NCBI GenBank assembly: GCA_018238155.1
Contig: JABCTZ010000020.1
Coordinates: 1 to 15,917, forward strand
DNA length: 15,917 bases
Origin: Candidatus Heimdallarchaeota archaeon
GTDB taxonomy: Archaea > Asgardarchaeota > Heimdallarchaeia > JABLTI01
Direction: 5' to 3'
This document shows, one piece after another, positions 488 to 13,908 of this stretch (position 1 is its first letter; each line of letters opens with the position of its first letter). The notes below the pieces were generated by a model. That model was not told the origin of the DNA. It worked only from the letters and a program-made list of their open reading frames with translations, and ran no database searches. The translations under genes and the position numbers were made by a program.

Positions 488-600
488 TAGCAACCTGCAA
501 TTAACTTCACACACTGCTATTCTGTTTCCGACGACAAAATAAAAAGACCACAATTGACGGAATGCCGTACAAGTATACATTTTTATAACTTTTATTTGAT

Positions 601-617
601 TAAGATGGTTTTAAATA
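601..617 (+). promoter_or_regulatory. Putative archaeal TATA box (TTTTAAATA, 609-617) for the wHTH/Pycsar gene run
   Basis: TATA-like motif in the divergent intergenic region, upstream of AAGGTG RBS and ATG 681. Confidence 0.45.
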
Positions 618-622
618 CTAAA

Positions 623-670
623 AATGAATAATATACTTAATGAATAATATGATTTATGAATAATAAAGGT
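623..670 (+). repeat. Three direct repeats of ATGAATAATA with exact 16-bp period (operator-like)
   Basis: Exact 10-mers at 624-633, 640-649 and 656-665, between the TATA-like box and the RBS of gene 681. Confidence 0.8.
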
Positions 671-680
671 GCTATTAAAA

Positions 681-1106
681 ATGAGTAATGAAGAAACAAA
701 GAAAAAGAAAGAAATATTGAAGGATATTTTCCTAAAGGAAGAAGATGTATTAGCTAAGTTTGAGAGATTGGTTAAATTATCAACACCCTTTTTAAAAGTT
801 GAAGAAAAAAGTGGACGAGTAGTTTTATCTACTGATTTTGAATTTACTAATTCAGAAAAACTATTCCTGATTCTTTTGGGTAAATACTTTGCCTATCATT
901 ATGATGTAATAAAGGATCAATCTCAATCACTAAATGACCTAAGCTTAGAAATTGGAGGTATACCCGTTACAACATTATCTGCTCCTATAGCTAGATTAGT
1001 TAAAGAAAGAATAGTTAACAAACCCGAAAAAGGAAGCTATATCGTTAATCCCTTTATGATTGAGCGTTTTCTTAAAGAAATTAATAACAAGTATTTAGAA
1101 AAATGA
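681..1106 (+). CDS. Hypothetical winged-helix-like protein
   Basis: ATG 681 preceded by AAGGTG (the track's GTG 669 lies inside the RBS). C-terminal pattern SLNDLSLEIGGIPVTTLSAPIARLVKERIVNKPEKGSYIVN fits HTH + wing. Confidence 0.7.
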   Translation: MSNEETKKKKEILKDIFLKEEDVLAKFERLVKLSTPFLKVEEKSGRVVLSTDFEFTNSEKLFLILLGKYFAYHYDVIKDQSQSLNDLSLEIGGIPVTTLSAPIARLVKERIVNKPEKGSYIVNPFMIERFLKEINNKYLEK

Positions 1107-1107
1107 G

Positions 1108-1608
1108 TTGAATGAGATGAATGAAAAGGGAATTTTGGAGCAACTAAATAACCTGGATAAACGATTAACCTTAATTGAAAATAAAATAAATTTAGTTAAT
1201 ATAAGTCAAATAAATGATGTTGATTTTACCACTCTGGCAGAAATTTCGTCTACAGAAGTTAGTGATTTAAGAAGAATTTTTGACATTTTTAATAGTGAAT
1301 TGAATCTTATAATGTCATTATTTGAGAATGAAAATAATCGAATAAAAATTCAAAATGTTGCTGTAATAGTATTATTATGTTTTAGATATGTCTTAAAGAA
1401 AGAAATTGTACTCTCAAGTGAAATACTACAAATTTTGAAAACTCAAAATATTTCATTATCAAATTATCGAACTTATATGCGCGAAATAAGTTTTGATTTA
1501 ATTGTTGGTGTTGAAGGAGAAATCTCACAAGATTATTCCTATAGACTAACAAATAATGGTGAAAAGAAAGCTATTGATTTAATCTCAAAAATTTTCGGAA
1601 GTGATTAA
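1108..1608 (+). CDS. Hypothetical protein, N-terminal coiled coil + C-terminal wHTH (module A, copy 1)
   Basis: Heptad-like EQLNNLDKRLTLIE; ends YSYRLTNNGEKKAIDLI (Y-x-LT-xx-G wing motif); full-length paralog of 2963..3460. Alternative start ATG 1117. Confidence 0.75.
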   Translation: MNEMNEKGILEQLNNLDKRLTLIENKINLVNISQINDVDFTTLAEISSTEVSDLRRIFDIFNSELNLIMSLFENENNRIKIQNVAVIVLLCFRYVLKKEIVLSSEILQILKTQNISLSNYRTYMREISFDLIVGVEGEISQDYSYRLTNNGEKKAIDLISKIFGSD

Positions 1609-2397
1609 ATGAATTTAGAAGAAATTAGAATAAAATTAGCTAATTTAGATTTATCTAAGTATCCAGATTTTTATGATCTTAAAAAACCATCAGATAAAGC
1701 CCTGTGGATTCTTTACGTATTAAAAGTGGAAGGAATCAGTAGACGATTATCAGCAGATTTCATTGCTAATCTAATTAGGGATGTTATGGAAATTAGCATT
1801 ACATCACAGTCAATCTATAATTCATTTAATCCCTTAATGAAGATCGGTTTAATTCATAAATACGAAATTGATGGTGAAAAATACTATGAGATTATGAAAC
1901 CTGGTAAAGAACACATCATGTCTCTCATAAAAGATGATTTGTTAAATATATTATACTTTCAACCTGGGGAAAGATTTTCATCAAAACGATTATTGTCAAC
2001 TAGAATTCTGGAAGAATGTGTAGGTGATATTTGTATAGTTGATCCCTATATTGGAATAAGAACCTTAGATATAATACGTGGTTTATCTCAAAATGTTAGA
2101 TTTATTACCAAAATATCAAATATCAGAAATCAAAATCAACAAAGCGCAATTACTCGGGAAATTAACGATTTCAAATCTGAATTCCCAAATTATCAGTTTA
2201 GAAGCTACAGGGGAACTGATTTACATGATAGATATATTATTGCCGATAATATACTAATAATCTCCGGTTACAGTTTAAAGGACTTAGGGAAAAAAGAATC
2301 TTTTGCTATTTTTCTAGAAAAGGATAATAATATTGATACAGTAACATCAATAAAAAGTGTATTTGAAACAAAATGGTTGAATTCTACATTAATTTAG
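1609..2397 (+). CDS. wHTH + phospholipase-D-like (HDR-type, MIT_C-like) domain protein
   Basis: N-terminal wHTH ending YYEIMKPGKEHI. C-terminal IVDPY...LHDRYIIAD...SGYSLKDLGKK...FETKW, a variant PLD-superfamily fold lacking canonical HxK. Start abuts the previous stop (TAAATG). Confidence 0.75.
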   Translation: MNLEEIRIKLANLDLSKYPDFYDLKKPSDKALWILYVLKVEGISRRLSADFIANLIRDVMEISITSQSIYNSFNPLMKIGLIHKYEIDGEKYYEIMKPGKEHIMSLIKDDLLNILYFQPGERFSSKRLLSTRILEECVGDICIVDPYIGIRTLDIIRGLSQNVRFITKISNIRNQNQQSAITREINDFKSEFPNYQFRSYRGTDLHDRYIIADNILIISGYSLKDLGKKESFAIFLEKDNNIDTVTSIKSVFETKWLNSTLI

Positions 2398-2412
2398 ATA
2401 AATGATACCCTA

Positions 2413-2465
2413 ATAAAAAGAATTTTATATTTCGGTACTAATATTCCAATAGAAATTGGGGTGAG
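2413..2465 (+). promoter_or_regulatory. Putative internal BRE/TATA (AAAAAGAA-TTTTATAT) and RBS GGGGTGAG
   Basis: Purine run followed by TTTTATAT at 2423-2430; GGGGTGAG at 2458-2465, just upstream of TTG 2470. Confidence 0.45.
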
Positions 2466-2469
2466 TTAA

Positions 2470-2970
2470 TTGGATCTCACAATTGTTAAGGAAAGTATCG
2501 AAGAAACAAATGAAATAATAAAACAAATTGATGATATTGATAGTTCAAAAAAAATGATTGTATGGGGTGTAATACTTAACAATCTATTAATAAAAAAACT
2601 ATTTTTTGAAAAAAACATGAATCTATTAGATATTAGAGATTTGAAGTCTGTTAATATAGCAAATGTATCATTATCGGAGTTCTATAATTTGGTAAATCCG
2701 AATACACATAATGATAGAATTTTATTGTTTGTCTATTGGTTAAAAGGCAACTCAAAGAAAGATCAATTTGAGCCAAAAGACATTGAAGAATGCTACAAGA
2801 AAGCTATAATAAAGTCACCAAAAAATCTGCCTGATTCTATGAGAAAATTAGCGAGTGGAAAAAAAGCTCTACTAATAAGACCGGAGAAAGGAATATATCA
2901 ACTAAGTAATATGGGAATAAATTATGTTAACAGATTGATTTCGAAAAAGGACGATGATTTAAATGACTGA
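2470..2970 (+). CDS. Hypothetical protein with C-terminal wHTH (module B, copy 1)
   Basis: HNDRILLFVYWL..F..KDIEECY..GK.ALLI..KGIYQLSNMG; paralog of 3874..4284; strong RBS. Confidence 0.75.
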   Translation: MDLTIVKESIEETNEIIKQIDDIDSSKKMIVWGVILNNLLIKKLFFEKNMNLLDIRDLKSVNIANVSLSEFYNLVNPNTHNDRILLFVYWLKGNSKKDQFEPKDIEECYKKAIIKSPKNLPDSMRKLASGKKALLIRPEKGIYQLSNMGINYVNRLISKKDDDLND

Positions 2971-3460
2971 AAAGGAAATTGAATTATTAAAAGAACAGAT
3001 GAAAAATCTTGAAAATAGGGTTAGTAAATTAGAAGAATTAACAAATGTAGATTCGAATTTTTTTGTTCATGACATTAATCTTGATAAAATTTGTAAGTCA
3101 AATAGTATTGAAATTTCACATCTTGCTAATATTTTTCACATTGAAAAAGAGGAAATAGTTTTACTAAAATATTCTAATGAAAATGATCTCGAAACATCAA
3201 AAATAACTCAAAATATCAGTTTGTTATTTCTATGGGGATACAAATTCTTGCTTTCGAAAGAAGATATTTCTCCAACATTAATAAAAGAGATGATTGAATA
3301 TCATGGAATTTCAATTCAAAATTTCTCAAAATATATTTCAGAAATTATACCACATTTAGTAATTAGAAAAGGCAGTAGTCCAAAAAATTACTCGTATAAA
3401 TTAACAATTCCAGGTATTGAAAAAGCATCAAAATTAATCAATGAGATTACTAGTGATTAA
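2963..3460 (+). CDS. Hypothetical protein, coiled coil + wHTH (module A, copy 2)
   Basis: EQMKNLENRVSKLE...NYSYKLTIPGIEKASKLI; aligns end to end with 1108..1608; overlaps the previous stop by 8 nt. Confidence 0.75.
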   Translation: MTEKEIELLKEQMKNLENRVSKLEELTNVDSNFFVHDINLDKICKSNSIEISHLANIFHIEKEEIVLLKYSNENDLETSKITQNISLLFLWGYKFLLSKEDISPTLIKEMIEYHGISIQNFSKYISEIIPHLVIRKGSSPKNYSYKLTIPGIEKASKLINEITSD

Positions 3461-3498
3461 GAAATTGAACTTGAATTAAAAGATTAAAGGTTTTAAAT

Positions 3499-4284
3499 AT
3501 GACAAATGTTGAGAATAAGGTATGTTTTGTTTTAATGCCGTTTAAACCGACAGAAATTTTTGATGATGTCTATCTAAAAATAAAAAATATAATTACAAAT
3601 TTTCAAATTAATTGTATCAGAGCAGATGTAATTTTTGGAACAAGAGCAATAATTGAAGATATACAAGAGATGATTAATAATTCTGATTTCTTACTTGCTG
3701 ATCTTACTAATAGAAATCCTAATGTTTTCTATGAATTAGGTTTAGCGCATTCAATATACAAACCAGTAATTCTAATTACTCAGAAATCAGAAGATGTACC
3801 TTTTGATATAAAACACATAAGATATATTAGATATGATTTTTCCGAAGAGGGTTTATAGAAATTAGAAAATGATTTGAATAATACAATACAAGTTGTTTTA
3901 GAAAATATTGATAAAGATGATAGATTTTTTAATTTTTTCACATTCCAAAAAATTAAGAAAAATTCAAAAAATGTTGTCAAGAATTTTCCTTTATTAGATA
4001 TTTTTAAATTACTTGAACCAATAAATCATAATGAATATACCTTATTATTTTCGTATTGGTTAACCTTTAAAAAATCACTAAAGGAATTTGGAACAAAAGA
4101 GATAGAAGAATGTTATAATCAAATCTCATTAAAGCCATCAGCTAATACTTCAACCTATCTAAATAGGCTATCAAATGGAAAAGACGCTCCATTAATAACA
4201 ATCAAAGAAGGTATTTACAAATTAAGTATTTCAGGTATTGATGATGTAGAAAAATGGATTGATAAATCCATTAAAGAGAAATAA
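3499..4284 (+). pseudogene. Nucleoside 2-deoxyribosyltransferase/TIR-like domain fused to wHTH module B (copy 2), interrupted by one in-frame TAG at 3856-3858 (nonsense allele, sequencing error or readthrough)
   Basis: 3499..3858 has CFVLMPF..CIRAD..ADLTNRNPNVFYELGLAH..PFDI. ORF 3874..4284 is in the same frame (offset 375 nt). The join reads YDFSEEGL*KLENDLNNTIQVVL, a continuous amphipathic helix, and no RBS precedes TTG 3874. Confidence 0.7.
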
Positions 4285-4379
4285 GCTTTAGAGTTGATAT
4301 TTTCTCTAATTGGCTATTATACAAAATGTTTTTTTAGTGATTTGACAATATACAATTGAATGGAAAAGGATTGATTGGG

Positions 4380-4880
4380 ATGGTAGAATTCATTATACCT
4401 AAAACATCATTAGATTTAGTAAATAAAATAATGAAAGCTTATTTCATAACTTATTCAGAGGATGGAGTTAAAGCTTTAGATGTTTCCAAAAAAACAGGTT
4501 ATAGTGCAGCTCAAATTTGGAAATCAAATCATTTTCTAATTAATATTGGTTTATTGACAAAGATTAGTAGTAAATTCATTCTTACAACTGAAGGTAAACA
4601 ATATGCTTCTAATTTGATGGATCAAAATGAGGAAGGAGCATATATTATTCTAAAGAGATTGATGCTCAGTTATGAACCAATTGAGTACATTGTAAATTTC
4701 TTTAAATTAGAAGGAAACGTAAGTACTGAAAAATTAAGAAATAGGATAATCGAACTTGCTGAGCTGGATTTAGGTATTAAAGATCATTGTGCAGGTTTAA
4801 AAGGATTAATAGAAATTCTAGTAGCTACAAAGATTATCATAAATATTGATAAAGACAATTTTACATTAGGGGATATATAA
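4380..4880 (+). CDS. Hypothetical winged-helix protein
   Basis: ATG 4380 after AAGGA (track start TTG 4356). DVSKKTGYSAAQIWKSNHFLINIGLL...FILTTEGKQYA fits HTH + wing, followed by a second helical domain. Confidence 0.7.
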   Translation: MVEFIIPKTSLDLVNKIMKAYFITYSEDGVKALDVSKKTGYSAAQIWKSNHFLINIGLLTKISSKFILTTEGKQYASNLMDQNEEGAYIILKRLMLSYEPIEYIVNFFKLEGNVSTEKLRNRIIELAELDLGIKDHCAGLKGLIEILVATKIIINIDKDNFTLGDI

Positions 4881-4881
4881 A

Positions 4882-5430
4882 TTGGAAAAGAGTGATGAAT
4901 TTAAAGAACAATCAATATTGATAGCTTATGAAAATTCACAAAATATGATTGCTTTGGCAGATTCCAAAGCTAATCTCTCTATTACTATTCAAAGTTTATT
5001 GATAACAATTGGACTAGGATCATCACTATTAGCCAATGTTTTTGCTAAATTATGGAATTTTAATAAAACATTGTTTTGGCTCTATTTTGTTTTTACTCTC
5101 ACTTTTACCATTACATCATTAACTGGAGTTATATTTTCTGTTATTGTATATAGAGCAAGATTTCCAAAGGATGAAATTGAAAAAAATAGAAAAGGTTTCC
5201 TGTATCATGATCATATTGCAAAACACGATAATTCAGATGAATTCTTTCGGGAATTTAAAGAAAGGAAAAAAATTGACATTTTGGAAGATTTCACTAAACA
5301 AACCTATAGTGTAGCTAAAATTGCACAGGAGAAAATGAAATACGTAAATTATTCCGTAGGATTTCTGTTTCTAAATATTCTTTTTGCAGTTATACTACTA
5401 GTTCTTAGTGGAGTTTTAGTTATATTGTGA
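4882..5430 (+). CDS. pycTM: Pycsar-type transmembrane effector (PycTM/DUF5706-like)
   Basis: N-terminal IALADSKA motif, two TM helices, soluble loop P...GFLY..HIA, Q.YSVAKIAQEKMKYV and a final TM helix; directly coupled to a class III cyclase. Confidence 0.85.
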   Translation: MEKSDEFKEQSILIAYENSQNMIALADSKANLSITIQSLLITIGLGSSLLANVFAKLWNFNKTLFWLYFVFTLTFTITSLTGVIFSVIVYRARFPKDEIEKNRKGFLYHDHIAKHDNSDEFFREFKERKKIDILEDFTKQTYSVAKIAQEKMKYVNYSVGFLFLNILFAVILLVLSGVLVIL

Positions 5431-6149
5431 GGGATAAAATCATGGTAATTAATAGAATTGAAAATAGAGTTAAGGAATACCTGAAAAATGATTATACTAT
5501 TAAAGAAGAGAAAAACTTGCCAAGAATACATAGTATGCCTTATGGTAAACGATTTGTAAAAACCAAAGTTTGTGCTTTTTACATTGATTTAAGGGATTCA
5601 ACTAGATTCTTATTTGAAGACGGAAAACTAGTTTCTGGTCAAGTACATAAGGCATTTTTGAATGTTGTTTCAGAAGTTATTCATCATTATAATGGCGACA
5701 TTCGAGATTTTCAAGGTGATGGTGTATTAGCCTTTTGGCCAGCAAATTACCAGAGTGAAATAAGTAGTGCAGTTAGAGCTGGTTTTGCATTAAAATGGTT
5801 TTTTAAAGAGAAACTGAAAAGTTATTTTGAACCTTTTGGTGAAATAAGATATGGTATTGGTGTTGATTGGGGAGATATATATGTTCTCAAAGCAGGCATT
5901 ACTGTAAAAGATAATACTAATGATTTAGTCTACATTGGAAAATGTGTTAATTTTGCAGTAGCTATAGCTAATCAACTAAATGATCCAAATAACATGGGAA
6001 TATCGGAATCAGTTTATTCTAATTTAGAAAAAGATAAAATATTTTCGAATAGAAATGATAAAAAAGAGAATAGATGGGAAGATTTTGACATACAATGGAA
6101 AAAAAGAGATTGCACTATAAAAACAACAGGTTGGTTGTGGAGTATATAA
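5427..6149 (+). CDS. pycC: Class III nucleotide cyclase, Pycsar PycC-like
   Basis: Metal-binding Asp motifs FYIDLRDST and FQGDGVLAF; YGIGVDWG, NDLVYIG..VNFA, aromatic C-terminus; GTGA overlap with the effector gene (alternative ATG 5442). Confidence 0.85.
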   Translation: MRDKIMVINRIENRVKEYLKNDYTIKEEKNLPRIHSMPYGKRFVKTKVCAFYIDLRDSTRFLFEDGKLVSGQVHKAFLNVVSEVIHHYNGDIRDFQGDGVLAFWPANYQSEISSAVRAGFALKWFFKEKLKSYFEPFGEIRYGIGVDWGDIYVLKAGITVKDNTNDLVYIGKCVNFAVAIANQLNDPNNMGISESVYSNLEKDKIFSNRNDKKENRWEDFDIQWKKRDCTIKTTGWLWSI

Positions 6150-6222: not shown

Positions 6223-7470
6223 TTAAGGATTCAATTCTAATTCATCTACATTTATAATTACTTTATAGCTAACAGGTTTCAGAATAATTTTTGAGTTTTT
6301 ATCTTTAAATGGATTGAAAATTGGCCAAATTTTCGGTTTATTGGTTTTCGCTTCAAATACCACATAAATATAATAATTTTCTAATTGTTTTGCTACCTCT
6401 ATTTGGTTGTAAGAAATATTGAATTGGATTTGACTGCTTGGAGATCTCATTGTTGATTTTACTTCAATATATTTCTTTCTTCCATTAAAATCATAGGATA
6501 GTATATCATATCCTAAAGAGTCATCTTCTATTGAGGCTATATTTACTCGTTCTGCTAAATTGCTTTTTCCGTTTTTAATTAGGATATCTCTTTCGTGTTT
6601 TTCAACGATTTTTTCACCTCTAAATCCCAATATTCTTTTTCGTCTATTTTCCTCTTCAAAATCAATTTTCTTAATTTGTCTCGTTTTGCTAGTTTTACCT
6701 TTATCGCTCTCTAAAATTTCAAGCTTAATTATCTCAGGTTTAATTTTTCTTAAATCTGGATAGTCACTACTTAAATCATTATATTCTTGTAGCTCCACTG
6801 GTATATTCTCAGTTTTTCTTGGATCACCTATTTCTGTATACAGAAATTTCATAAACAGATATGTTGACCATTTTTTCATTTCTTCATTATTTCTCTTAAA
6901 TTCCATCAGTAATTCTCTTTTATCTATTTCATCAGCTTCAATATTATAATTGATTCTAAGCATTTCAAGAAAATAATTAAGATGTTCCTTTGTGAAGATA
7001 TTTAAACATTCATCTGGAAAATAAGTGGCTAAAATTTTGCCTTTGAACATGACTGATAGATTTATATCTTTTACTCTTTGTTTATTTCCATCTTGGTGTG
7101 CTAAAAGCAAGTTATGTATCTCTTGTTTTACTTTTTGGAATGCTATTTTATAATCTAAGCTATAATCTTTTGTAGATTCATATCGATTACTTTTATCACT
7201 ATAATATACTTTAAATTTCCATACTGGACCACCTAAGATACTTCCTAGTTCCTTCAACTTTCTTTCCAAAAGATAACAAAAAGATTCATTTGATTTATTT
7301 CCTGTAACGTAACGCTCAATTGAGATATTGAGAATGTCATCCTTTGGAAACAAACGTTCAAATTCCGCTCTATGTTGCTTAAGTTCAGCATCCTTTGCTT
7401 TATACACCTCCATTCTTTTCAGAAAATTCAACAATAAAATTTGTAACTCGACTTTAGTAACCATTCTCAT
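6223..7470 (-). CDS. DUF3883 (NO VEIN C-terminal, PD-(D/E)XK) nuclease with N-terminal putative DNA-recognition domain; type IV restriction-like
   Basis: C-terminal GFRGEKIV..GYDILSY..KKYIEVKST..F.ISYNQ..YYIYVV. N-terminal SFCYLLE..LGSI.GG..KF.VYY resembles N-termini of McrB-like/HNH restriction proteins (from recall). Start ATG 7470 after GAAGGA preferred over TTG 7536. Confidence 0.8.
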   Translation of the reverse strand: MRMVTKVELQILLLNFLKRMEVYKAKDAELKQHRAEFERLFPKDDILNISIERYVTGNKSNESFCYLLERKLKELGSILGGPVWKFKVYYSDKSNRYESTKDYSLDYKIAFQKVKQEIHNLLLAHQDGNKQRVKDINLSVMFKGKILATYFPDECLNIFTKEHLNYFLEMLRINYNIEADEIDKRELLMEFKRNNEEMKKWSTYLFMKFLYTEIGDPRKTENIPVELQEYNDLSSDYPDLRKIKPEIIKLEILESDKGKTSKTRQIKKIDFEEENRRKRILGFRGEKIVEKHERDILIKNGKSNLAERVNIASIEDDSLGYDILSYDFNGRKKYIEVKSTMRSPSSQIQFNISYNQIEVAKQLENYYIYVVFEAKTNKPKIWPIFNPFKDKNSKIILKPVSYKVIINVDELELNP

Positions 7471-7537
7471 AAATCCTTCATATTTTCTTATCTCAATGTT
7501 GTTGTTTATTCCCTTTCCAAAGAAGACATTAATCAAA

Positions 7538-9028
7538 CTACAATAGATTTACAATTTCTCTTCTAGATTCTTTGATGAAGTAAGATGTTTCATCATCATA
7601 CCATTTTTTAGTTAAATCATTTTGTACAACTAAATCAAAATTAATTAATCTCCTTAATCTAAGTAAACCATAATCTACTTCGAATTGTGCATTTTTCTTA
7701 ATCTCTTCTTTAATCTCTTTTATTGTAATTGGTTGGAAGTCCTTTTTTAATATGTTAAGTATAACTTTATCATTAATATCTAGAAGTTCACTAATAATCG
7801 AATTATATGCTATTTCAGGTAGAATCTCATTCATTTCCTTTATTATTAAATTTTCAAATTCTTCATTTTCATACACATCATAATCAATACAATAAGAGAA
7901 GACCCGAATCTTGTCAACAAATGATTGAAATGACATTCCTGTATCTATAATTTCTTCCCCAAACAATCTCTTATATCGAATTGTTGTTTCAACTTTATCT
8001 TCATTTATACCTTCTGAGTAGGGAGATCTACAAACTAAGTATATTTCTTTGCTCTTAGTTTGTGGAATGTATTTCTTTAATAGTTTTCTAAAATGTATAT
8101 CATAATCATTTAATCCATAACCTATGAAATAAATCACATCGCTATTTCTAATCAAAGACTCAGATACATATAGCAGATTTTGCATAGATGTTACTTTATG
8201 AAGTTGTTCCAGTGTTGGTGGAACTATTGGAATCTTTTGATTAATTTTGTCCCATAAACATCTATATCCTTTTGTTGCACTTTCAGTAGCTCCTTTGATT
8301 AGAGGGGTTAGTTCAATTCTATTACATAGTGGACAATGTAACCAATTCAATGATCCATGAGGTTTCAGAAGACTAATACTGTTTTGTTCTCTGGGTTTAG
8401 TCCATTCATCTTCAATAGAACGTTTTTTCTCAAAATTTGCAAAATTTATATGGTAGTCAATATCAACAGTTTCGTTCTCTTTTTTCCGATGCAGTCGAGT
8501 GAGAGCATTATCAAGCAATATATCGTAATTGAGATTTATATAATTTGATTGAAGGAATTCTTCACGCCCAAGGAATAAGAAAAGACTATTTATGAAATCC
8601 TTATGAATTTTCTCAGATTTAAGAAGACAATAATCGAGTGTAACTGATAATAGCCAAATTAAATTGTCAATAAGTGACCCAATTTCTTCATTTGTGAATT
8701 TCTTACAGTTATAAGTTGATAACCCTTCTTTATTGTCAAAAAGAATTTGCAAAAAAGGAAAAATATCATTAAAATTGGGTGTAATTTTGTCATTATTGTA
8801 ATGAGGAAAAAAATCATCTAGAAAATTCACCAATAAAGTTTGGTTATCTCTTAATCTTCCTTTGATTAGATTTAGATTTAAATCATTAATGTATCTAGAT
8901 TCAGCAATTTCAGAGATATTATCTTCTGTTAATTCAACCATTTTTAAAATTAGACTTTTCCAATTAGGTGCACCTTCAGCCATAGATGCTCCATTACCAA
9001 ATATAAACAATCTTCTTTTCATTTCCAA
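7538..9028 (-). CDS. SIR2-like (SIR2_2) NADase-family protein with C-terminal wHTH-like domain
   Basis: FIFGNGAS..GAP.W, NLNYDILLD, LLKPHGSLNW.HCPLC, IVPPT, FIGYGL.DYD. C-terminal ILNILKK..PITIKEIKE..RLRRLINFDLV..SYFI. Start TTG 9028 or ATG 9022. Confidence 0.85.
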   Translation of the reverse strand: MEMKRRLFIFGNGASMAEGAPNWKSLILKMVELTEDNISEIAESRYINDLNLNLIKGRLRDNQTLLVNFLDDFFPHYNNDKITPNFNDIFPFLQILFDNKEGLSTYNCKKFTNEEIGSLIDNLIWLLSVTLDYCLLKSEKIHKDFINSLFLFLGREEFLQSNYINLNYDILLDNALTRLHRKKENETVDIDYHINFANFEKKRSIEDEWTKPREQNSISLLKPHGSLNWLHCPLCNRIELTPLIKGATESATKGYRCLWDKINQKIPIVPPTLEQLHKVTSMQNLLYVSESLIRNSDVIYFIGYGLNDYDIHFRKLLKKYIPQTKSKEIYLVCRSPYSEGINEDKVETTIRYKRLFGEEIIDTGMSFQSFVDKIRVFSYCIDYDVYENEEFENLIIKEMNEILPEIAYNSIISELLDINDKVILNILKKDFQPITIKEIKEEIKKNAQFEVDYGLLRLRRLINFDLVVQNDLTKKWYDDETSYFIKESRREIVNLL

Positions 9029-9052
9029 ATCAATTTTAGTATTATTCTTTGA

Positions 9053-9068
9053 ATTTATAATTTATTTG
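9053..9068 (-). promoter_or_regulatory. Putative BRE/TATA (CAAATAAA-TTATAAA) for the SIR2 gene
   Basis: TTATAAA on the minus strand at 9060-9054, about 25 nt upstream of the start codon, consistent with a leaderless or short-leader archaeal transcript. Confidence 0.45.
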
Positions 9069-9385
9069 GAGCTTTAATTAAAGAATTTTTACGCAATGTA
9101 TATCTGATTCAGATTGCTAAAATGTAAGGGAGTATTGAGGGTTGAGTGTTACATTTTGATTATCAATCAACTAAGAAATCTATTTTTCTTTTGTCCTTTT
9201 TACGCCTAGTTGAAGTTAGGATTATAGCAAAAGAAATTGAAAAATTGAACCAGAATTATCTTATCTAGAACTTGAAGAAGAATTACTCTTTGATCGAATT
9301 TTTCCTGATTATTTATTCCTAATAGAAATATAGTTGATTAGAATAGTATATATTCTTCTTATTGATTATGAACTAGGGATTCATA

Positions 9386-9766
9386 ATGCGTTTCGATCAT
9401 GAGAAAAATAGAAGTAAATTCTTACTATCAAAGGCTGGCAAAAGCTTAGTTTCAATGCAATTATATAAGAGAAAATTCGTAGTTGATGTCGATTTTGAAA
9501 GCAGAGAATCTAATTTAACAATTGTTAAAAGTAAAAAGGAATTTTCAGTAAAAGTTAGAACTTTAAGTAAAAAAGAGAATCTACCGTTGGGTCAAAATGA
9601 TTTTTCGGATTATGATTTTATAATTGCTTGTATTAATATCTTTGATTTACCTGAATATTATATTATACCTACTAACGTTGATATTGAAATTTCAGGTAAT
9701 ACTAGAGATTATATTACTTTGAATGAATTGGAAAAATTCCAAGATAGATGGAATTTGATTAAGTGA
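9386..9766 (+). CDS. Small PD-(D/E)XK/Holliday-resolvase-fold-like protein, catalytic residues apparently degenerate
   Basis: AGKSLVSMQLYKR..SNLTI..FSVKVRT..YDFIIAC..PEYYIIP..FQDRWNLI follows the layout GE..V..L..D..QVK..DF..YIIP..W of small restriction-like endonucleases. Confidence 0.55.
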   Translation: MRFDHEKNRSKFLLSKAGKSLVSMQLYKRKFVVDVDFESRESNLTIVKSKKEFSVKVRTLSKKENLPLGQNDFSDYDFIIACINIFDLPEYYIIPTNVDIEISGNTRDYITLNELEKFQDRWNLIK

Positions 9767-10004
9767 TATAATTTTTCTTTTTGTAAAGTTTTAAGAGATT
9801 GAATGATGTATTTCAATCTGGAGATATTTATTTTGACCGAACCAAAATGTGACGGAACTGAATTAAGTTTTAAGATCTATTTAAGTAAAGATTTGCCTGC
9901 TCGTTATTCTCATATAACATCTGTTTTCTATTGCTTGAAATATGGAAAAATAATCTCTGTCAACGTAATTAAAACGGGTTAGAGATCCCTTTTTTTAATT
10001 AAAA

Positions 10005-10748
10005 TTAAACTCTCTTTAATATCGCATTTCTTATCTTCTCAACCTCATGTAAATCAGTAGTATAGTGACCTGCTTCATAGCTACCTCCTTCAGAGGACTT
10101 GTGAAAGAAATTCATAGAAGAAATAATAGCAATTTTCTGATCAACAACAATTAATTTGGCATGCACCTTATTGTCGTAAATTACTCTGATTCCAGCTGCT
10201 TTTAATGTTTGATGATAATTTAGTTCTTGATTATCAAATGGTCGACGCATAATAGTCGTTACTTGAGCTCTATTCCTTCTTGCTATTTTCAATGTTTCAC
10301 TCAAAGCACATTGTTTTATGAATGGGTTCATTACCAGAACTTCTTGTCGAGCATCTCGAATTATTTCCTTAGAATATACAGAGAGTTTTGCACTGTCTAG
10401 AAATTCGCTTCTGGATGTATTTACTCCTATTAAGGATTTTAATCCCACAACAAAACTCTTGACTAATTCGTTAACTACTGGTAAATCTAAAAAGGATACT
10501 TCTTGTTTCAAATAATCCTCATAGTCTCTTCTCAATTTATTATCAATAACAAAATATTCACTATTTCTTTTCTCAATAGCATTCACGCTAAATAATTCAG
10601 CTAAAGCTCGTTTAAGAGCATAATTATTCAAATCAGTATATAACTGAATCATTTTCCAAGAATGTGCATCATTGATAATAATCGCTTCTAAAATTCTACC
10701 TTTCCATGAATTGTAATAATTTGGTTCTCTTCCGCTCAAAAAAATCAC
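10005..10748 (-). CDS. wHTH-like N-terminus + single-HKD phospholipase D/nuclease domain
   Basis: VMNPFI..VHAKLIVVD..AIISSMNF..YEAG. N-terminal ILEAII..SWKMIQLYTDL..ALKRALAELF..IEK..YFV helix-turn-helix-wing pattern. Confidence 0.8.
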   Translation of the reverse strand: MIFLSGREPNYYNSWKGRILEAIIINDAHSWKMIQLYTDLNNYALKRALAELFSVNAIEKRNSEYFVIDNKLRRDYEDYLKQEVSFLDLPVVNELVKSFVVGLKSLIGVNTSRSEFLDSAKLSVYSKEIIRDARQEVLVMNPFIKQCALSETLKIARRNRAQVTTIMRRPFDNQELNYHQTLKAAGIRVIYDNKVHAKLIVVDQKIAIISSMNFFHKSSEGGSYEAGHYTTDLHEVEKIRNAILKRV

Positions 10749-10779
10749 CCTAGTTTTTCCACTTAGGTTATTCCTTATC

Positions 10780-10797
10780 TATTTAAATATTTTATCT
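10780..10797 (-). promoter_or_regulatory. Putative BRE/TATA (GATAAAA-TA-TTTAAATA) for the wHTH-PLD gene
   Basis: TTTAAATA on the minus strand at 10787-10780, about 31 nt upstream of GTG 10748. Confidence 0.45.
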
Positions 10798-10883
10798 GGA
10801 TGAATTACTTAGTTTTTCAACCTAAGCATGTCATTACCGAACTGGATTTCTAGATCTTACAGAAGTAGCATGTTGATACTAAT

Positions 10884-11561
10884 TCATTTGAGATATTGCG
10901 TCTTATCCTCTAAATCATATTTGACATATGCTTCTTTACGTCTCATACATGGAGGACATTCACCACATTGCTTCTCATTGTCATGCCAACAACTCCAAGA
11001 ATCTGATAAATCAAAGTCATTTTCTGAAGCCCATTTTACCATTTCATCTTTTCCCCAATTTAATTCAAGAAATGGCGCAACAATTAGAATGTTTTTTTCC
11101 GGTATTGCTGTTCTTGATTCTTTGTTCTTAATTTTGTAAAATGCTTTTGAGTTATCTTTAAATGTATCACCCACATTTGATCCAGTGGTTATGAATGCAA
11201 TTTCTTCGCATGCTGCAAGTCTCAAACCTTGATTTAATATATCTGAATTTCTTAAATCAAAGATATGTATATTACCCCTAAATTTCTCCTTGAAGAATTT
11301 TGGTGGAATATCTACTATAATTTCTCTTAAATTTTCTAGTTTATCCTTGTATTCTCTCTTAATCTTATCAGAATAATATAAAATTGCTTCTTTCTCCTTC
11401 ATATAATTTCTCTGACCTCGATTAATAAAATAAGGAATAACTGTGCAGTTATATTCCTTTATTAGAAGATATACTAAAGCTGTAGAATCTAATCCACCTG
11501 TCCAAGTAGCTAGAATTTTTTTATTTATTATTTTTTTTAAGATTTTTTTCATATCTATCAC
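10884..11561 (-). CDS. QueC-family (7-cyano-7-deazaguanine synthase-like) PP-loop ATPase, divergent
   Basis: PP-loop TGGLDST, RGQR, LRN, APF..K..MV, Zn site SWSCW-x6-CGECPPCMRR. GTGA overlap with the HD gene (alternative ATG 11552). Confidence 0.85.
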   Translation of the reverse strand: MIDMKKILKKIINKKILATWTGGLDSTALVYLLIKEYNCTVIPYFINRGQRNYMKEKEAILYYSDKIKREYKDKLENLREIIVDIPPKFFKEKFRGNIHIFDLRNSDILNQGLRLAACEEIAFITTGSNVGDTFKDNSKAFYKIKNKESRTAIPEKNILIVAPFLELNWGKDEMVKWASENDFDLSDSWSCWHDNEKQCGECPPCMRRKEAYVKYDLEDKTQYLK

Positions 11562-13072
11562 ACAACTGATCCAAATATATACTCCTGTATTTCCTTTATT
11601 AACTTCTCACTTTTTACTTCTTTTGGAAGTTGTGTGTATTTGTTATTATGAATGAAAATATTTAATCCCCAATTATCCATATAGACATCATTAAAGGATT
11701 CCAGAAGGTGAGAGCTTTCTGATAAAGTTTGCAATAATGTTGTTTCTTTACCAATAAAACTATGCTTGGTGATAACTTTCATGTAGATTTCCTCAAAACT
11801 CTGAACTACAGGAATATCTACCATTACATCAAAGTTATTTAAAGTAATACTAGATAGATATTTGGTAATCATTGATTTAATCTCATCTTCTATTAATAAT
11901 GAGATTTTATTGAGATTGTATATTGATGATTTTCTTTCTAATGAAATTTCTTCCAATACATTTCTTAGATTAAGTGGAATATGATTCCATTTTAGTTCCA
12001 ATATATTTCTATAATTATTTTTACATTGAATTTCTGTGATTCTTTTTTTATTCTCTTCTAATCCAAGAAGTTCCACATAAAAAGAATTATCATCCCAAAC
12101 TACATCTTTGTAATCTGGTTCTGGAAAGAATCTTTTTGCTAAATTCATATATCTATCTTCATCATTACTATACCTAGATAATAATGAAGTGTCTGGCGGA
12201 TTGTCAACCAGTTCTTTTGTTGCTTTTAGTATAATTTTATTGGCTAGAATATATGTCTTATTTGAAAGGAATATCCTACGTTCATTCAATCTAAGTAAAA
12301 GAATCATTATTGCATCTATAATATTATCTTGTTGAATAGTAATCTCATACTTATTTGGAGGTTTTTTAATTAACTCTAATTCACTTATTTGGTTAATAAG
12401 ATTATTTGTGAACTTATTTATAGATAAACAAGATGCAAAGAAATCCGGATCTGAAACAAAACCTCTTTTCATTTGTTGATAATCTCTATATAGATAATCA
12501 AGTCTATCAATATCAATATCATTGGATATTAATTGTTTTGCTAGTTGTAAGGTTTCATTATCTAATTCCTTCCCAATCAGCACTTTTTCTATTTGTTCAG
12601 GTAAATTCGTAAACCCAGTGTCTTCTATTAGCTTTTTGAGATGCTTATTATTATTACAGTCAAACTTAGCGATTGTAGCAGAATTATTCTCATGTCTAAA
12701 TTTGCTAGTATCATCATATAGTGATTTTAGTATCTTCTCTGACAAATGAGAAAAAGGGCCATGGCCCGTATCATGATATAAAGCTGCTAGTCTCGCTAAA
12801 ATTGCAAATTCATCCCAGTTTATATCAAGAGCAAAGTCTTCATTTGATACATTCTTTAAGTAGTCAATAAACTTGATTGATAATGCTAAAACACCTTCTG
12901 TGTGATGAAATCGTGAATGCTTAGCAAAAGTATATTCTTCAATCCAATCTAATGTTCCTAGTTGCTTGATTCTTTTTAACCTTGTAAGAAAAGGTGTTTT
13001 AAGAATCTCTTTTTCAATATCATTAAAGTTTAATTCTTTCAATCTGAAATTGTTCCACTTAAACAAACTCAT
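11558..13072 (-). CDS. HD-domain phosphohydrolase, SAMHD1/dNTP triphosphohydrolase-like
   Basis: RLKRIKQLG, HSRFHHTEGV, AALYHDTGHGPFSH, HE, DIDRLDYLYRD, plus a C-terminal HD-associated region. Confidence 0.88.
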   Translation of the reverse strand: MSLFKWNNFRLKELNFNDIEKEILKTPFLTRLKRIKQLGTLDWIEEYTFAKHSRFHHTEGVLALSIKFIDYLKNVSNEDFALDINWDEFAILARLAALYHDTGHGPFSHLSEKILKSLYDDTSKFRHENNSATIAKFDCNNNKHLKKLIEDTGFTNLPEQIEKVLIGKELDNETLQLAKQLISNDIDIDRLDYLYRDYQQMKRGFVSDPDFFASCLSINKFTNNLINQISELELIKKPPNKYEITIQQDNIIDAIMILLLRLNERRIFLSNKTYILANKIILKATKELVDNPPDTSLLSRYSNDEDRYMNLAKRFFPEPDYKDVVWDDNSFYVELLGLEENKKRITEIQCKNNYRNILELKWNHIPLNLRNVLEEISLERKSSIYNLNKISLLIEDEIKSMITKYLSSITLNNFDVMVDIPVVQSFEEIYMKVITKHSFIGKETTLLQTLSESSHLLESFNDVYMDNWGLNIFIHNNKYTQLPKEVKSEKLIKEIQEYIFGSVV

Positions 13073-13074
13073 AA

Positions 13075-13908
13075 TTATTCCTCCCCAAATAAGGAATCAC
13101 AAATGATTTTCATTAATTTTTCAAGTACTTTCTCTTTTATTGTTTCATCAAAAACACTTTTAGAATATTCAAGAAAATAATCGTCGATTATATTGATTAC
13201 ATGTTCAGTTTCTTCTAAATAATCTTTTTCATTCTTGAATTCTTTGTTTATATAGTTTAAAATTTCATTTTTAATCTTAGGTATGAATTCTTCCCCCTTC
13301 GAAATCTTAGTTTTACTAAGATAATTATTTGTTATTGTTTTTATATATTCACCTATCTTATTATATATTATGTGTTTTGTGAAAAAATCTACAATAATTT
13401 TCTGGGTTTCATCTTTTGCTTTTGCTGTTAATATACTTGAATTATAATTTATTTCTGAATCAATAAATACACCAAGATACCAATTATTAAGCAATTTCCT
13501 CATTATTCCATCTTTAGTAGTAGAATCTATAAATTCGATATACTTAAGCTTGCTTTCGATTGAAGGTCTATCAATTATTAATATTGCTTTTGGCCAATCG
13601 ATACCTAATTTTTCGTTTATTGATCTCTCTAGCTTATTTCTTATATCAATATTTTTCATGAAATTTCTAAAAACTATATCAACGTGTTTATAACCAAATT
13701 TTTCCAAACTAGAAAATCTGTATACATATAATTCTTCATAAATTTTATTCTCATAAACTTTCTTTAAGAAATTTCTTGCTTGAATGATCTCCGTACTAGT
13801 TTCATATTTCTTAATTTCTTCATCCTTATTTAAGAAAGCATAAAAATAATAGATGGATTGATACCCACCTTTAGTCTTTTCATATAATTTGTCACAAACT
13901 TCTTTCAT
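13075..13908 (-). CDS. Hypothetical protein resembling the C-terminal (HD-associated) half of SAMHD1-like hydrolases; possibly 5'-truncated
   Basis: ARNFLKKVYENKIY..LERSINEKLGI..LIIDRP..NNWYLGVFI parallels the neighbouring gene's NNY..IEDEI..VMVDIP..DNWGLNIFI; no HD motifs; 2-nt gap to the HD gene. Confidence 0.6.
   Translation of the reverse strand: MKEVCDKLYEKTKGGYQSIYYFYAFLNKDEEIKKYETSTEIIQARNFLKKVYENKIYEELYVYRFSSLEKFGYKHVDIVFRNFMKNIDIRNKLERSINEKLGIDWPKAILIIDRPSIESKLKYIEFIDSTTKDGIMRKLLNNWYLGVFIDSEINYNSSILTAKAKDETQKIIVDFFTKHIIYNKIGEYIKTITNNYLSKTKISKGEEFIPKIKNEILNYINKEFKNEKDYLEETEHVINIIDDYFLEYSKSVFDETIKEKVLEKLMKIICDSLFGEE

What the first reader, a model, noticed from the sequence alone, without database searches (positions are those of the whole stretch)
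1108..4284. Two interleaved paralog pairs (A1/A2, B1/B2) show modular duplication with N-terminal domain swapping
Seen: 1108..1608 and 2963..3460 align end to end (EQL.NL..R / EQM.NL..R; IF.I; QN; YSYRLT..G.KKA..LI / YSYKLT..G.EKA..LI; both end SD). 2470..2970 and 3874..4284 share HN...LLF.YWL, IEECY, GK.A.LI and GIY.LS..GI. Each A copy is preceded by a stand-alone wHTH gene and followed by an enzyme-wHTH fusion, giving a repeated three-gene unit [wHTH][A][effector-wHTH] twice (681-2397 and 2470-4284), each with its own TATA-like box. Inference: a three-gene cassette with an exchangeable effector (PLD-like vs NDT/TIR-like). The copies are well diverged, so the duplication is old.
Basis: partly seen in the sequence, partly recalled or inferred. 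Interest (0 to 1): 0.75.

Follow-up and report, generated by a model that had tools for sequence, protein, structure and literature searches.

The report
Winged-helix cassettes with swappable effectors
Two neighbouring copies of an unnamed gene cassette sit in an archaeal anti-virus gene island: small DNA-binding-type (winged-helix) proteins travel with an enzyme that carries the same kind of module. The cassette recurs in other archaea and bacteria with different enzymes, so it is probably an undescribed defence or addiction module.

Summary
A1/A2 (31% identity, E=1e-19) and B1/B2 (38%, E=1e-20) are real paralog pairs. Window 681-4284 holds two adjacent cassettes of small winged-helix (wHTH) proteins plus a wHTH-fused enzyme.

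The cassette also occurs elsewhere. The order [w669-type wHTH][A or B][wHTH-PLD-like] recurs in Freyarchaeia, Bathyarchaeia, a DPANN-like MAG, metagenomes and two bacterial MAGs. Other loci carry Rx6H (HEPN-like), DUF4145 or TIR/NDT-like enzymes instead. Natural fusions w669+A and w669+A+A tie the small proteins together.

- The first genes of the two units belong to different wHTH families.
- A and B are distant homologs that can replace each other.
- B2 is the C-terminal half of a TIR-B fusion gene, cut here by an in-frame TAG at 3856-3858. The gene is intact in relatives.
- A simple old tandem duplication is not shown.

The PLD-like domain is the HDR type (MIT_C/PB-PLD1 class) and matches only the C-terminal part of PADLOC candidate PDC-S05.

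I read this as an autoregulated defence or addiction cassette that has not been described in the literature. Function and mechanism are untested. This scan already noted the same kind of cassette on other DNA (e1-2794660, e1-1332959).

The parts
609..665 (+). Putative promoter/operator of cassette 1: TATA-like TTTTAAATA (609-617), then three ATGAATAATA boxes at 624, 640 and 656 (16-bp phase)
   Evidence: Sequence and direct repeats. The TATA-like string and the GAATAATA cores are conserved in syntenic metagenome loci L006/L008 while the spacers differ. Function is inferred.
681..1106 (+). w669: small winged-helix protein, first gene of cassette 1 (ATG 681 fits the conserved start; the ORF listing gives GTG 669)
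   Evidence: The family profile (aln A5) hits HTH regulators in PDB (PH0140 5e-4, AdcR, PagR, AspA). It lies upstream of A in L006, L029, L043-L047 and L049. It is naturally fused to A in 8 representative clusters and in L025. dN/dS is 0.05 against L006.
1117..1608 (+). A1: coiled-coil helix, small helical hairpin and PadR/MarR-like winged helix with a C-terminal helix
   Evidence: AF2 pLDDT 87. VIA-align Z 9.3 to AF1382, RosR and PadR over residues 71-166. The family has 99 representative clusters, no Pfam or PADLOC model and no named ESM Atlas cluster.
1609..2397 (+). wPLD: B-like winged helix (residues 1-115) fused to an HDR-type PLD-like domain (residues 116-262); effector of cassette 1
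   Evidence: PADLOC PDC-S05 3.6e-16, C-terminal part only. Invariant D145-P-Y and H206-D207-R208 in 7 homologs. N-terminal domain vs B profile: hhalign E=1.6e-3 over 92 columns, HMM 2.2e-4.
2423..2464 (+). TATA-like TTTTATAT (2423-2430) and GGGGTGA ribosome-binding-like site (2458-2464) ahead of B1
   Evidence: Sequence only; not tested.
2470..2970 (+). B1: stand-alone B-family protein (helical hairpin plus winged helix plus C-terminal helix), first gene of cassette 2
   Evidence: AF2 pLDDT 84. Foldseek gives winged-helix matches (Cdc6 WH, MarR, forkhead). It is paralogous to B2. B-family genes lie next to A or to effector genes in L010, L024, L026, L027, L040, L041, L045, L049 and L050.
2963..3460 (+). 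A2: second A-family protein; overlaps the end of B1 by 8 nt
   Evidence: 31% identical to A1; A-family HMM 1.4e-50. In L006 only its last ~50 codons remain.
3499..3858 (+). TIR/NDT-like effector domain, ending at in-frame TAG 3856-3858
   Evidence: PADLOC TIR effector 3.7e-9. Pfam Nuc_deoxyrib_tr and CAP12-PCTIR_TIR are below their cut-offs. phrog_3634 3.8e-24. Fused to B in P0007 (K at the TAG position) and P0008 (G). dN/dS 0.19.
3859..4284 (+). B2: B-type winged-helix module, the C-terminal half of the TIR-B gene (a possible TTG restart at 3874)
   Evidence: Same frame as 3499-3858. 73% identical to the C-terminal half of the intact L006 fusion, dN/dS 0.15. It hits the C-terminal wHTH of Rx6H effectors at 6e-7.
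4380..4880 (+). w4356: further wHTH-like protein between the cassettes and Pycsar; unclear which it belongs to
   Evidence: 41% identical to the L006 gene that precedes a CBASS SMODS cyclase there. Only weak WH/CARF-like PADLOC hits. dN/dS 0.57.
4882..6149 (+). Context: Pycsar pair, PycTM (4882-5430) and PycC (5427-6149)
   Evidence: PADLOC PycTM 7.6e-21 and PycC 1.4e-46.

Best explanation
Window 681-4284 holds two adjacent members of one modular family of conflict (defence or addiction) cassettes. Each cassette encodes an enzyme fused to a B-type winged-helix module: an HDR-type PLD-like domain in cassette 1 and a TIR/NDT-like domain in cassette 2. Each also encodes two small non-enzymatic winged-helix proteins, drawn from three families: w669, the coiled-coil protein A, and B. 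My proposed mechanism is as follows. The small proteins form a DNA-bound, coiled-coil-mediated oligomer. This oligomer represses the operon at the GAATAATA x3 operator and holds the effector inactive through winged-helix contacts. Where a stand-alone module has a paralog on the effector (B1 with TIR-B2; the 202-aa and 261-aa proteins of L009), those contacts would be homotypic. Infection or loss of the element would disturb this complex and free the effector, which then attacks nucleic acid (PLD-like, HEPN-like) or a nucleotide or NAD-type substrate (TIR/NDT-like). Shown: paralogy, folds, conserved gene order across phyla and domains, effector swapping, gene fusions, purifying selection, a conserved upstream repeat, and known defence genes beside the cassette at many of the loci. 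Inferred: defence role, protein-protein binding, autoregulation, trigger and substrates. In this window cassette 2 is probably disabled or split by the TAG.
For: Paralogy. Conserved order [w669][A or B][wHTH-PLD]: L006, L024 Freyarchaeia chromosome and L010, L043-L045, L046/L047 Bathyarchaeia and L049/L050 bacteria. Other effectors in the same frame: Rx6H plus C-terminal wHTH in L025-L029, L040 and L041; DUF4145 in L009; TIR-B in L006 and P0008. Fusions: w669+A in P0060, P0066, P0085, P0094, P0095, P0097 and P0104; w669+A+A in P0107 and L025. Paired stand-alone and effector-borne modules: B1/B2 E=1e-20; L009 pair E=3e-10. All small proteins are winged helix. Patchy spread: A in 8/400 and B in 8/400 genomes of the phylum, and neither in any of the 10 same-genus genomes. 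Known defence genes lie beside the cassette in the window, L006/L009 (SMODS), L025 (OLD/GajA-like), L045 (PDC-S02) and L049 (type II RM). All genes have dN/dS 0.05-0.57 against L006. The TATA-like string and GAATAATA boxes are conserved. A PDC-S05 representative protected E. coli against T7, T5 and T4 (bioRxiv 10.1101/2024.09.26.614923).
Against: There is no experimental or expression data for any member. The PLD-like domain has HDR instead of the classical HxK, and the related MIT_C domain of MITD1 is known as a membrane binder, so catalysis is unproven. The TIR/NDT-like domain scores below Pfam cut-offs. Some loci (L044, L010, L046, L050) showed no recognised defence neighbours. Relatedness among the wHTH families rests on borderline profile scores. 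A1's wing is acidic or neutral here (pI 4.8), so DNA binding by A1 itself is uncertain.
Confidence: 0.5

Rival explanations
1. Direct DNA-sensing restriction-like system. The winged-helix modules recognise a feature of invader DNA, and the effector's own winged helix tethers the enzyme to that DNA. The small proteins would be specificity or scaffold subunits rather than inhibitors.
For: All modules are DNA-binding-type winged helices. wHTH sensor domains are common in Menshen and type IIS enzymes (PMC12065111). HDR-type PLD domains are proposed nucleases there. Most A-family members have a basic wing.
Against: TIR/NDT-like and HEPN-like effectors do not act on DNA, which fits an abortive response better. 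Small genes come first with translational coupling, and the upstream repeat resembles toxin-antitoxin operons. There is no methylase or other self-protection gene inside the cassette.
Confidence: 0.2
2. Addiction or maintenance module of a mobile element (toxin-antitoxin-like, or linked to partition) with no dedicated anti-virus role.
For: Patchy, cross-domain distribution. The window contig is 28.4% GC against 32.8% for the genome. In L044 the triplet sits alone among housekeeping genes. The best Foldseek match of A1 is the plasmid centromere binder AspA.
Against: No ParA/ParB, integrase or replication gene is seen next to the cassettes examined. Frequent defence neighbours. No PHROG hits for the small proteins.
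Confidence: 0.15
3. Unrelated transcription regulators and enzymes that merely cluster in a variable island, with no functional unit.
For: Winged helix is the commonest archaeal regulator fold. Several family links are only borderline by profile comparison.
Against: The same order with overlapping or abutting genes recurs in distant lineages. Recurrent w669+A fusions. Effector-borne modules are paralogous to the neighbouring stand-alone gene.
Confidence: 0.05

Closest known systems
PADLOC candidate system PDC-S05 (single gene)
   Same: The PLD-like C-terminal domains of window 1609-2397 and of its homologs in L024 and L010 match the PDC-S05 profiles at 1e-11 to 1e-16. One PDC-S05 representative protected E. 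coli from T7, T5 and T4 (10.1101/2024.09.26.614923).
   Different: Only profile positions ~174-295 of 306 match. That representative is described with an N-terminal RhuM domain; here the N-terminal domain is a B-like winged helix. PDC-S05 is defined as a single gene, whereas here the enzyme always travels with one to three small wHTH genes that have no PADLOC model.
HDR-type PLD domains: MIT_C of MITD1 and PB-PLD1 of Menshen NsnC (PMC12065111)
   Same: A conserved acidic residue (D145 in DPY) and an invariant H-D-R motif (206-208) in 7 homologs. Weak MIT_C Pfam hits and a PADLOC NsnC hit (3.7e-6) in relatives.
   Different: No ParB-like NsnA/NsnB partners and no inactive-PIN adaptor. The fusion partner is a winged helix, and the gene neighbourhood is different.
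Type II / tripartite toxin-antitoxin and AbiE-type modules with wHTH antitoxins
   Same: Small DNA-binding proteins are encoded first, tightly coupled to a downstream enzyme gene. There is an operator-like repeat between the TATA-like box and the start codon. Distribution is patchy and mobile.
   Different: The toxin-like enzyme itself carries a winged helix. There are two or three small partners from three families. The effectors (HDR-PLD, TIR/NDT, Rx6H) are not classical TA toxins. Neutralisation has not been shown.
Effector-associated (adaptor) domain logic of NTP-dependent conflict systems (Kaur et al. 2020, PMC7159879)
   Same: The same module occurs stand-alone and fused to interchangeable effectors encoded next door (B1/TIR-B2; L009 pair).
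   Different: There is no STAND/NTPase core. The shared module is a winged helix rather than a Death-like or EAD fold. The cassettes are much smaller.
PadR/MarR/ArsR-type winged-helix regulators (e.g. AF1382, RosR, AspA)
   Same: Fold of A1 residues 71-166 (Z 9.3, rmsd 2.4 A, 85 aligned) and of B1. The w669 profile hits such regulators.
   Different: No significant sequence similarity for A or B. A has an extra N-terminal coiled coil. The families are linked to enzymes, not to metabolic operons.

Membership tests
PADLOC PDC-S05 | Match to the PDC-S05 profile over its whole length, as a stand-alone gene | tested here: not met
   Only residues 116-244 match profile positions 174-295 of 306. The N-terminal part is a different (B-like wHTH) domain, and the gene is always accompanied by small wHTH genes.
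HDR-type PLD (MIT_C / PB-PLD1 class) | [quoted passage not shown] | tested here: met
   D145-P146-Y147 and H206-D207-R208 are invariant in the 7-sequence alignment A9. Strand assignment was not checked, because no structure of this protein was predicted.
HDR-type PLD (MIT_C / PB-PLD1 class) | Significant profile match to Pfam MIT_C (PF16565) | tested here: inconclusive
   There is no hit for the window protein. Relatives L024 11039-11803 and L010 2071-2733 give E~0.02, below the cut-off.
Classical PLD/Nuc nucleases | HxK(x)4D ... GSxN (HKD) motif | tested here: not met
   The motif reads H-D-R, with no Lys at the third position. No Pfam PLDc/PLDc_2 hit for the window protein.
TIR / nucleoside 2-deoxyribosyltransferase-like effectors | Profile match above the curated threshold | tested here: inconclusive
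   Pfam Nuc_deoxyrib_tr scores 22.8 bits (cut-off 28.8) and CAP12-PCTIR_TIR 20.4 (cut-off 24.7). PADLOC TIR effector 3.7e-9; phrog_3634 3.8e-24.
TIR / nucleoside 2-deoxyribosyltransferase-like effectors | Catalytic glutamate in the conserved loop | not tested
   A Glu is present in the FYELG stretch, which is conserved in P0007 and P0008. Its equivalence to the catalytic Glu is my inference; no structure was made.
Winged helix-turn-helix fold | Three-helix core plus beta-hairpin wing, shown by structure or profile | tested here: met
   A1: Z 9.3-8.0 to 23 wHTH regulators. B1: Foldseek matches to MarR, Cdc6-WH and forkhead, probability 0.9-0.98, but E>0.1. w669: sequence profile E=5e-4 to HTH regulators.
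Type II toxin-antitoxin systems | Antitoxin binds and neutralises the toxin; the operon is autoregulated | not testable with these tools
   Gene order, coupling and a conserved operator-like repeat fit. Binding and neutralisation need experiments.
Effector-associated-domain conflict systems (Kaur et al. 2020) | Central STAND/other NTPase plus a shared adaptor domain on core and effector | tested here: not met
   The shared-module pairing is present. No NTPase was found in any cassette except a neighbouring OLD-like ATPase in L025.
Pycsar (context genes 4882-6149) | PycC cyclase next to a PycTM/TIR effector | tested here: met
   PADLOC PycC 1.4e-46 and PycTM 7.6e-21; Pfam PycTM 38.8 bits, above the cut-off of 27.2.

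The most novel reading that the evidence does not exclude
A new class of NTPase-free immune system, shared by Asgard and other archaea and by bacteria, in which winged-helix modules serve as homotypic adaptors. A scaffold of w669 and the coiled-coil protein A (or B) would sense invader DNA and recruit or release interchangeable effectors (HDR-PLD, TIR/NDT, HEPN-like) through a B-type winged helix on the enzyme.
Probability: 0.3. Interest if true: 0.8.

Novelty: new variant of a known kind. Interest (0 to 1): 0.6.

Why it matters
If it is functional, this is a compact, widely transferred conflict module that current defence finders would flag at most by its enzyme gene (as PDC-S05). Its three partner families (99 representative clusters for A alone) have no Pfam or PADLOC model. 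It would add an effector-swapping architecture built only from winged-helix modules, with no NTPase or nucleotide signal. It would also give a testable case of how a DNA-binding fold is reused as an adaptor. Archaeal immunity beyond CRISPR and R-M is poorly known (PMC12988326), so members in Asgard and Bathyarchaeia are useful entry points. The bacterial members (Aminicenantes, Coatesbacteria) offer easier test systems.

Tried and rejected
- Complex prediction (w669 + two A1 + wPLD, partner wPLD) gave no verdict: score 0.05 against a mark of 0.32. I do not use it either way.
- The look-up of sequencing runs for 600-4400 listed no run. Transcript starts and the TAG could therefore not be checked in reads.
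- TAG as a sense codon (e.g. pyrrolysine) is unlikely. TAG ends the wPLD gene one residue short of where the L006 homolog ends (262 residues each). ARAGORN found no CUA tRNA, but it found only 20 tRNAs in the MAG, so this is weak.
- An RNA fold around the TAG is unremarkable (z = -0.74).
- Word-index searches found few A or B relatives and no B fusions longer than 311 aa; this is weak evidence.
- Sequence-only PDB searches for A and B gave nothing: only coiled-coil noise for A and nothing below E=0.07 for B.
- The sigma-70 promoter scan is uninformative for an archaeon: 46 sites found against 40 expected.
- w669 is not a B paralog by sequence, and it shows no similarity to the wPLD N-terminus.
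Full report
**Setting.** The window is the whole 15.9-kb contig C9 of a 4.08-Mb, 46-contig MAG with an archaeal SSU rRNA. A complete genome of the same phylum (G116) is Candidatus Freyarchaeota CP147778.1, so the phylum is Asgard. Nearly the whole contig is a defence island:
- Pycsar: PycTM 4882-5430 and PycC 5427-6149
- PD-T4-1 / NOV_C: 6223-7536
- a SIR2 protein: 7538-9028
- a DrmC-like PLD: 10005-10748
- QueC-like and HD proteins: 10884-13072

The contig is 28.4% GC against 32.8% for the genome.

**Observation.** A1 and A2 are 31% identical over 163 residues (E=1e-19). B1 and B2 are 38% identical over 97 residues (E=1e-20). With relatives added, the B alignment reaches into B1's N-terminal helices. 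There are no other copies in the genome. Genes abut or overlap: stop 1106 then start 1108/1117; 1608 then 1609; 2970 overlapping 2963. So the described layout is real.

One correction concerns the second fusion. ORFs 3499-3858 and 3874-4284 are in the same frame, separated by TAG 3856-3858. In a syntenic metagenome locus (L006) and in P0008 the two halves form one 270- or 266-aa protein, with Lys or Gly at that position. TAG also ends the wPLD gene one residue short of where its L006 homolog ends (262 residues each), so it is a stop codon here. Both halves show dN/dS of 0.15-0.19 against L006. The break is therefore recent, or a variant or error. In L006 the TIR-B gene is intact, but A2 is reduced to its last ~50 codons. 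The second cassette is damaged in both islands, in different genes.

**What the proteins are.**
- *A.* An AF2 model of A1 on a 30-sequence alignment has pLDDT 87. It shows a long N-terminal helix (4-29), a small helix-hairpin unit (41-67), and a winged helix with a C-terminal helix (77-162). Residues 71-166 match PadR, MarR and RosR-type regulators (Z 9.3, rmsd 2.4 A, 85 residues). The best Foldseek match is AspA.
- *B.* B1 (pLDDT 84) is a helical hairpin, a disordered linker, and a winged helix with the same order of elements. Its structural matches are winged helices.
- *w669.* The family profile of the 681 product hits HTH regulators in PDB by sequence (E=5e-4).
- *Known models.* None of the three families has a Pfam, NCBIfam, PADLOC or PHROG model. 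The nearest ESM Atlas cluster is an unnamed, mostly archaeal set.
- *Links between families.* A and B are distant homologs: hhalign E=1.7e-4 over 63 columns in register, plus cross-hits of A members to the B model. w669 is not demonstrably related to B beyond the fold.
- *Modules on the effectors.* These are B-type. The wPLD N-terminus against B gives E=1.6e-3 over 92 columns by hhalign and 2.2e-4 by HMM. B2 against the C-terminal winged helix of the Rx6H effectors gives 6e-7.
- *PLD-like domain.* It matches only the C-terminal part of PADLOC PDC-S05. It has invariant DPY and H-D-R motifs. That places it with the HDR-type PLD domains (MIT_C, Menshen PB-PLD1) described in PMC12065111, not with classical HKD nucleases.
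- *TIR/NDT-like domain.* It is below the Pfam cut-offs but hits a PADLOC TIR effector model at 3.7e-9.

**Conservation elsewhere.** An exhaustive HMMER search with the A profile found 99 representative clusters, 28 of them below 1e-10. The contexts I could read all show A next to small winged-helix genes and an effector fusion.

| Locus (source) | Gene order |
|---|---|
| L006-L008 (metagenomes) | syntenic with the window |
| L024 (Freyarchaeia chromosome) | [B-like][A][wHTH-PLD] |
| L010 (GCA_002779795.1) | [B][A][w669-like][w669-like][PLD-like] |
| L043, L044 | [w669][A][wHTH-PLD] |
| L045 | [w669][A][B][wHTH-PLD] |
| L046, L047 (Bathyarchaeia) | [w669][A][wHTH-PLD] |
| L049 (Aminicenantes) | [w669][B][wHTH-PLD] |
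| L050 (Coatesbacteria) | [B][wHTH-PLD] |

Other effectors occupy the same frame:
- A ~255-aa protein with an invariant R-x6-H motif and a C-terminal winged helix, in L025-L029, L040 and L041.
- A wHTH-DUF4145 protein in L009.
- An A-type module fused to Hypoth_Ymh in P0024.

Gene fusions link the small proteins. w669+A occurs in seven representative clusters. w669+A+A occurs in P0107 and in the 456-aa protein of L025.

Twice, independently, a stand-alone module is paralogous to the module on the neighbouring effector: B1/TIR-B2 and the 202-aa and 261-aa proteins of L009 (E=3e-10).

Distribution is patchy. A occurs in 8 of 400 genomes of the phylum and B in 8 of 400. Neither occurs in the 10 same-genus genomes.

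Recognised defence genes lie within a few kb in the window, L006, L009, L024, L025, L045 and L049. By eye, R-M-like genes also lie next to L029 and L039. No defence neighbours were seen in L010, L044, L046 or L050. I made no formal enrichment test.

**How the two units relate.** They are not copies of one three-gene unit. Unit 1 is w669 + A + (B-like)-PLD. Unit 2 is B + A + TIR-B. w669 and B co-occur in single cassettes elsewhere, while A and B substitute for each other. In a 33-row tree, A1 and A2 fall in the same well-supported clade (100/99), but they are not sisters and the fork is unresolved. Old duplication and separate acquisition therefore both remain possible. B1 and B2 are each other's closest relatives, which fits duplication within the cassette.

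**Regulation.** Upstream of 681 lie a TATA-like TTTTAAATA (609-617) and three ATGAATAATA boxes in 16-bp phase (624, 640, 656). The TATA-like string and the GAATAATA cores are conserved in L006 and L008 at dS~0.75, while the spacers differ. Their position fits an archaeal repressor site. This is an inference.

**Mechanism.** My best reading (0.5) is an autoregulated defence or addiction cassette. In it, the small winged-helix proteins form a DNA-bound oligomer that represses the operon and restrains the winged-helix-tethered enzyme until infection or element loss disturbs the complex. Rivals are:
- direct DNA sensing with tethered effectors (0.2)
- a mobile-element addiction module without an antiviral role (0.15)
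- a chance cluster of unrelated genes (0.05)

Binding, trigger, substrates and any phenotype are untested. The one complex prediction gave no verdict.

**Novelty.** Full-text searches found no described system with this composition. The archaeal defence survey PMC12988326 treats PDC-S05 as a single-gene candidate. Within this scan the same kind of cassette was already reported on other DNA (e1-2794660, e1-1332959), and the present array was also noted as e1-5497153. I class it as a new variant of a known kind: defence or TA-like cassettes with swapped effectors, with an enzyme related to PDC-S05 and PB-PLD1. Interest is 0.6.

Noticed in passing
window 3856-3858: In-frame TAG splits a TIR/NDT-like-B fusion gene that is intact in L006 (Lys at that position) and P0008 (Gly). 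Both halves have dN/dS 0.15-0.19, so the break is recent, or a variant or an assembly error.
   Followed up: yes
L006 4411-4584: In the syntenic metagenome island the A2 gene is reduced to a 57-aa C-terminal remnant while TIR-B is intact. This is the reverse of the damage seen in the window.
   Followed up: partly
window 609-665; L006 ~2040-2100: The TATA-like TTTTAAATA and three GAATAATA(T) boxes in 16-bp phase are conserved between the window and L006/L008 while the spacers vary. This is a candidate operator for the wHTH proteins.
   Followed up: partly
window 4356-4880; L006 5499-6002: A wHTH-like gene (41% identical between the islands, dN/dS 0.57) precedes Pycsar in the window but a CBASS SMODS cyclase in L006. 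It may be a regulator of cyclic-nucleotide systems or a further member of the array.
   Followed up: partly
window 4882-6149: A complete Pycsar pair, with the effector gene before the cyclase, on a contig binned to an Asgard archaeon.
   Followed up: partly
window 6223-13908 (minus strand): Further defence genes: PD-T4-1/NOV_C (5e-67), a SIR2 protein with a weak sub-threshold Rok-type WH hit at its C-terminus, a DrmC-like HKD PLD, and a QueC-like plus HD-domain pair with an unknown 277-aa gene.
   Followed up: no
whole contig C9: The contig is 28.4% GC against 32.8% for the MAG (5.9% contamination estimate), and A and B are absent from 10 same-genus genomes. It is either a horizontally acquired island or possibly mis-binned.
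   Followed up: partly
L025 5315-9547: In G169 a single 456-aa protein fuses w669 + A + A. It is followed by an Rx6H-wHTH effector and an OLD/GajA-like AAA-TOPRIM ATPase.
   Followed up: partly
L044 4583-6303: The [w669][A][wHTH-PLD] triplet is inserted alone between S-layer and glycosyltransferase genes. This looks like a minimal mobile unit without an island.
   Followed up: no
L024 11039-11803: In the Freyarchaeia chromosome a second, divergently oriented PDC-S05-type PLD-like gene with a different N-terminal domain lies next to the triplet.
   Followed up: no
L026-L029, L039-L041 N-termini: Many A-like and B-like proteins of the Rx6H cassettes begin with a shared beta-rich motif (e.g. Y-R-I-x-I-K...E-I-E-V-E-G), which replaces the coiled coil of A.
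   Followed up: no
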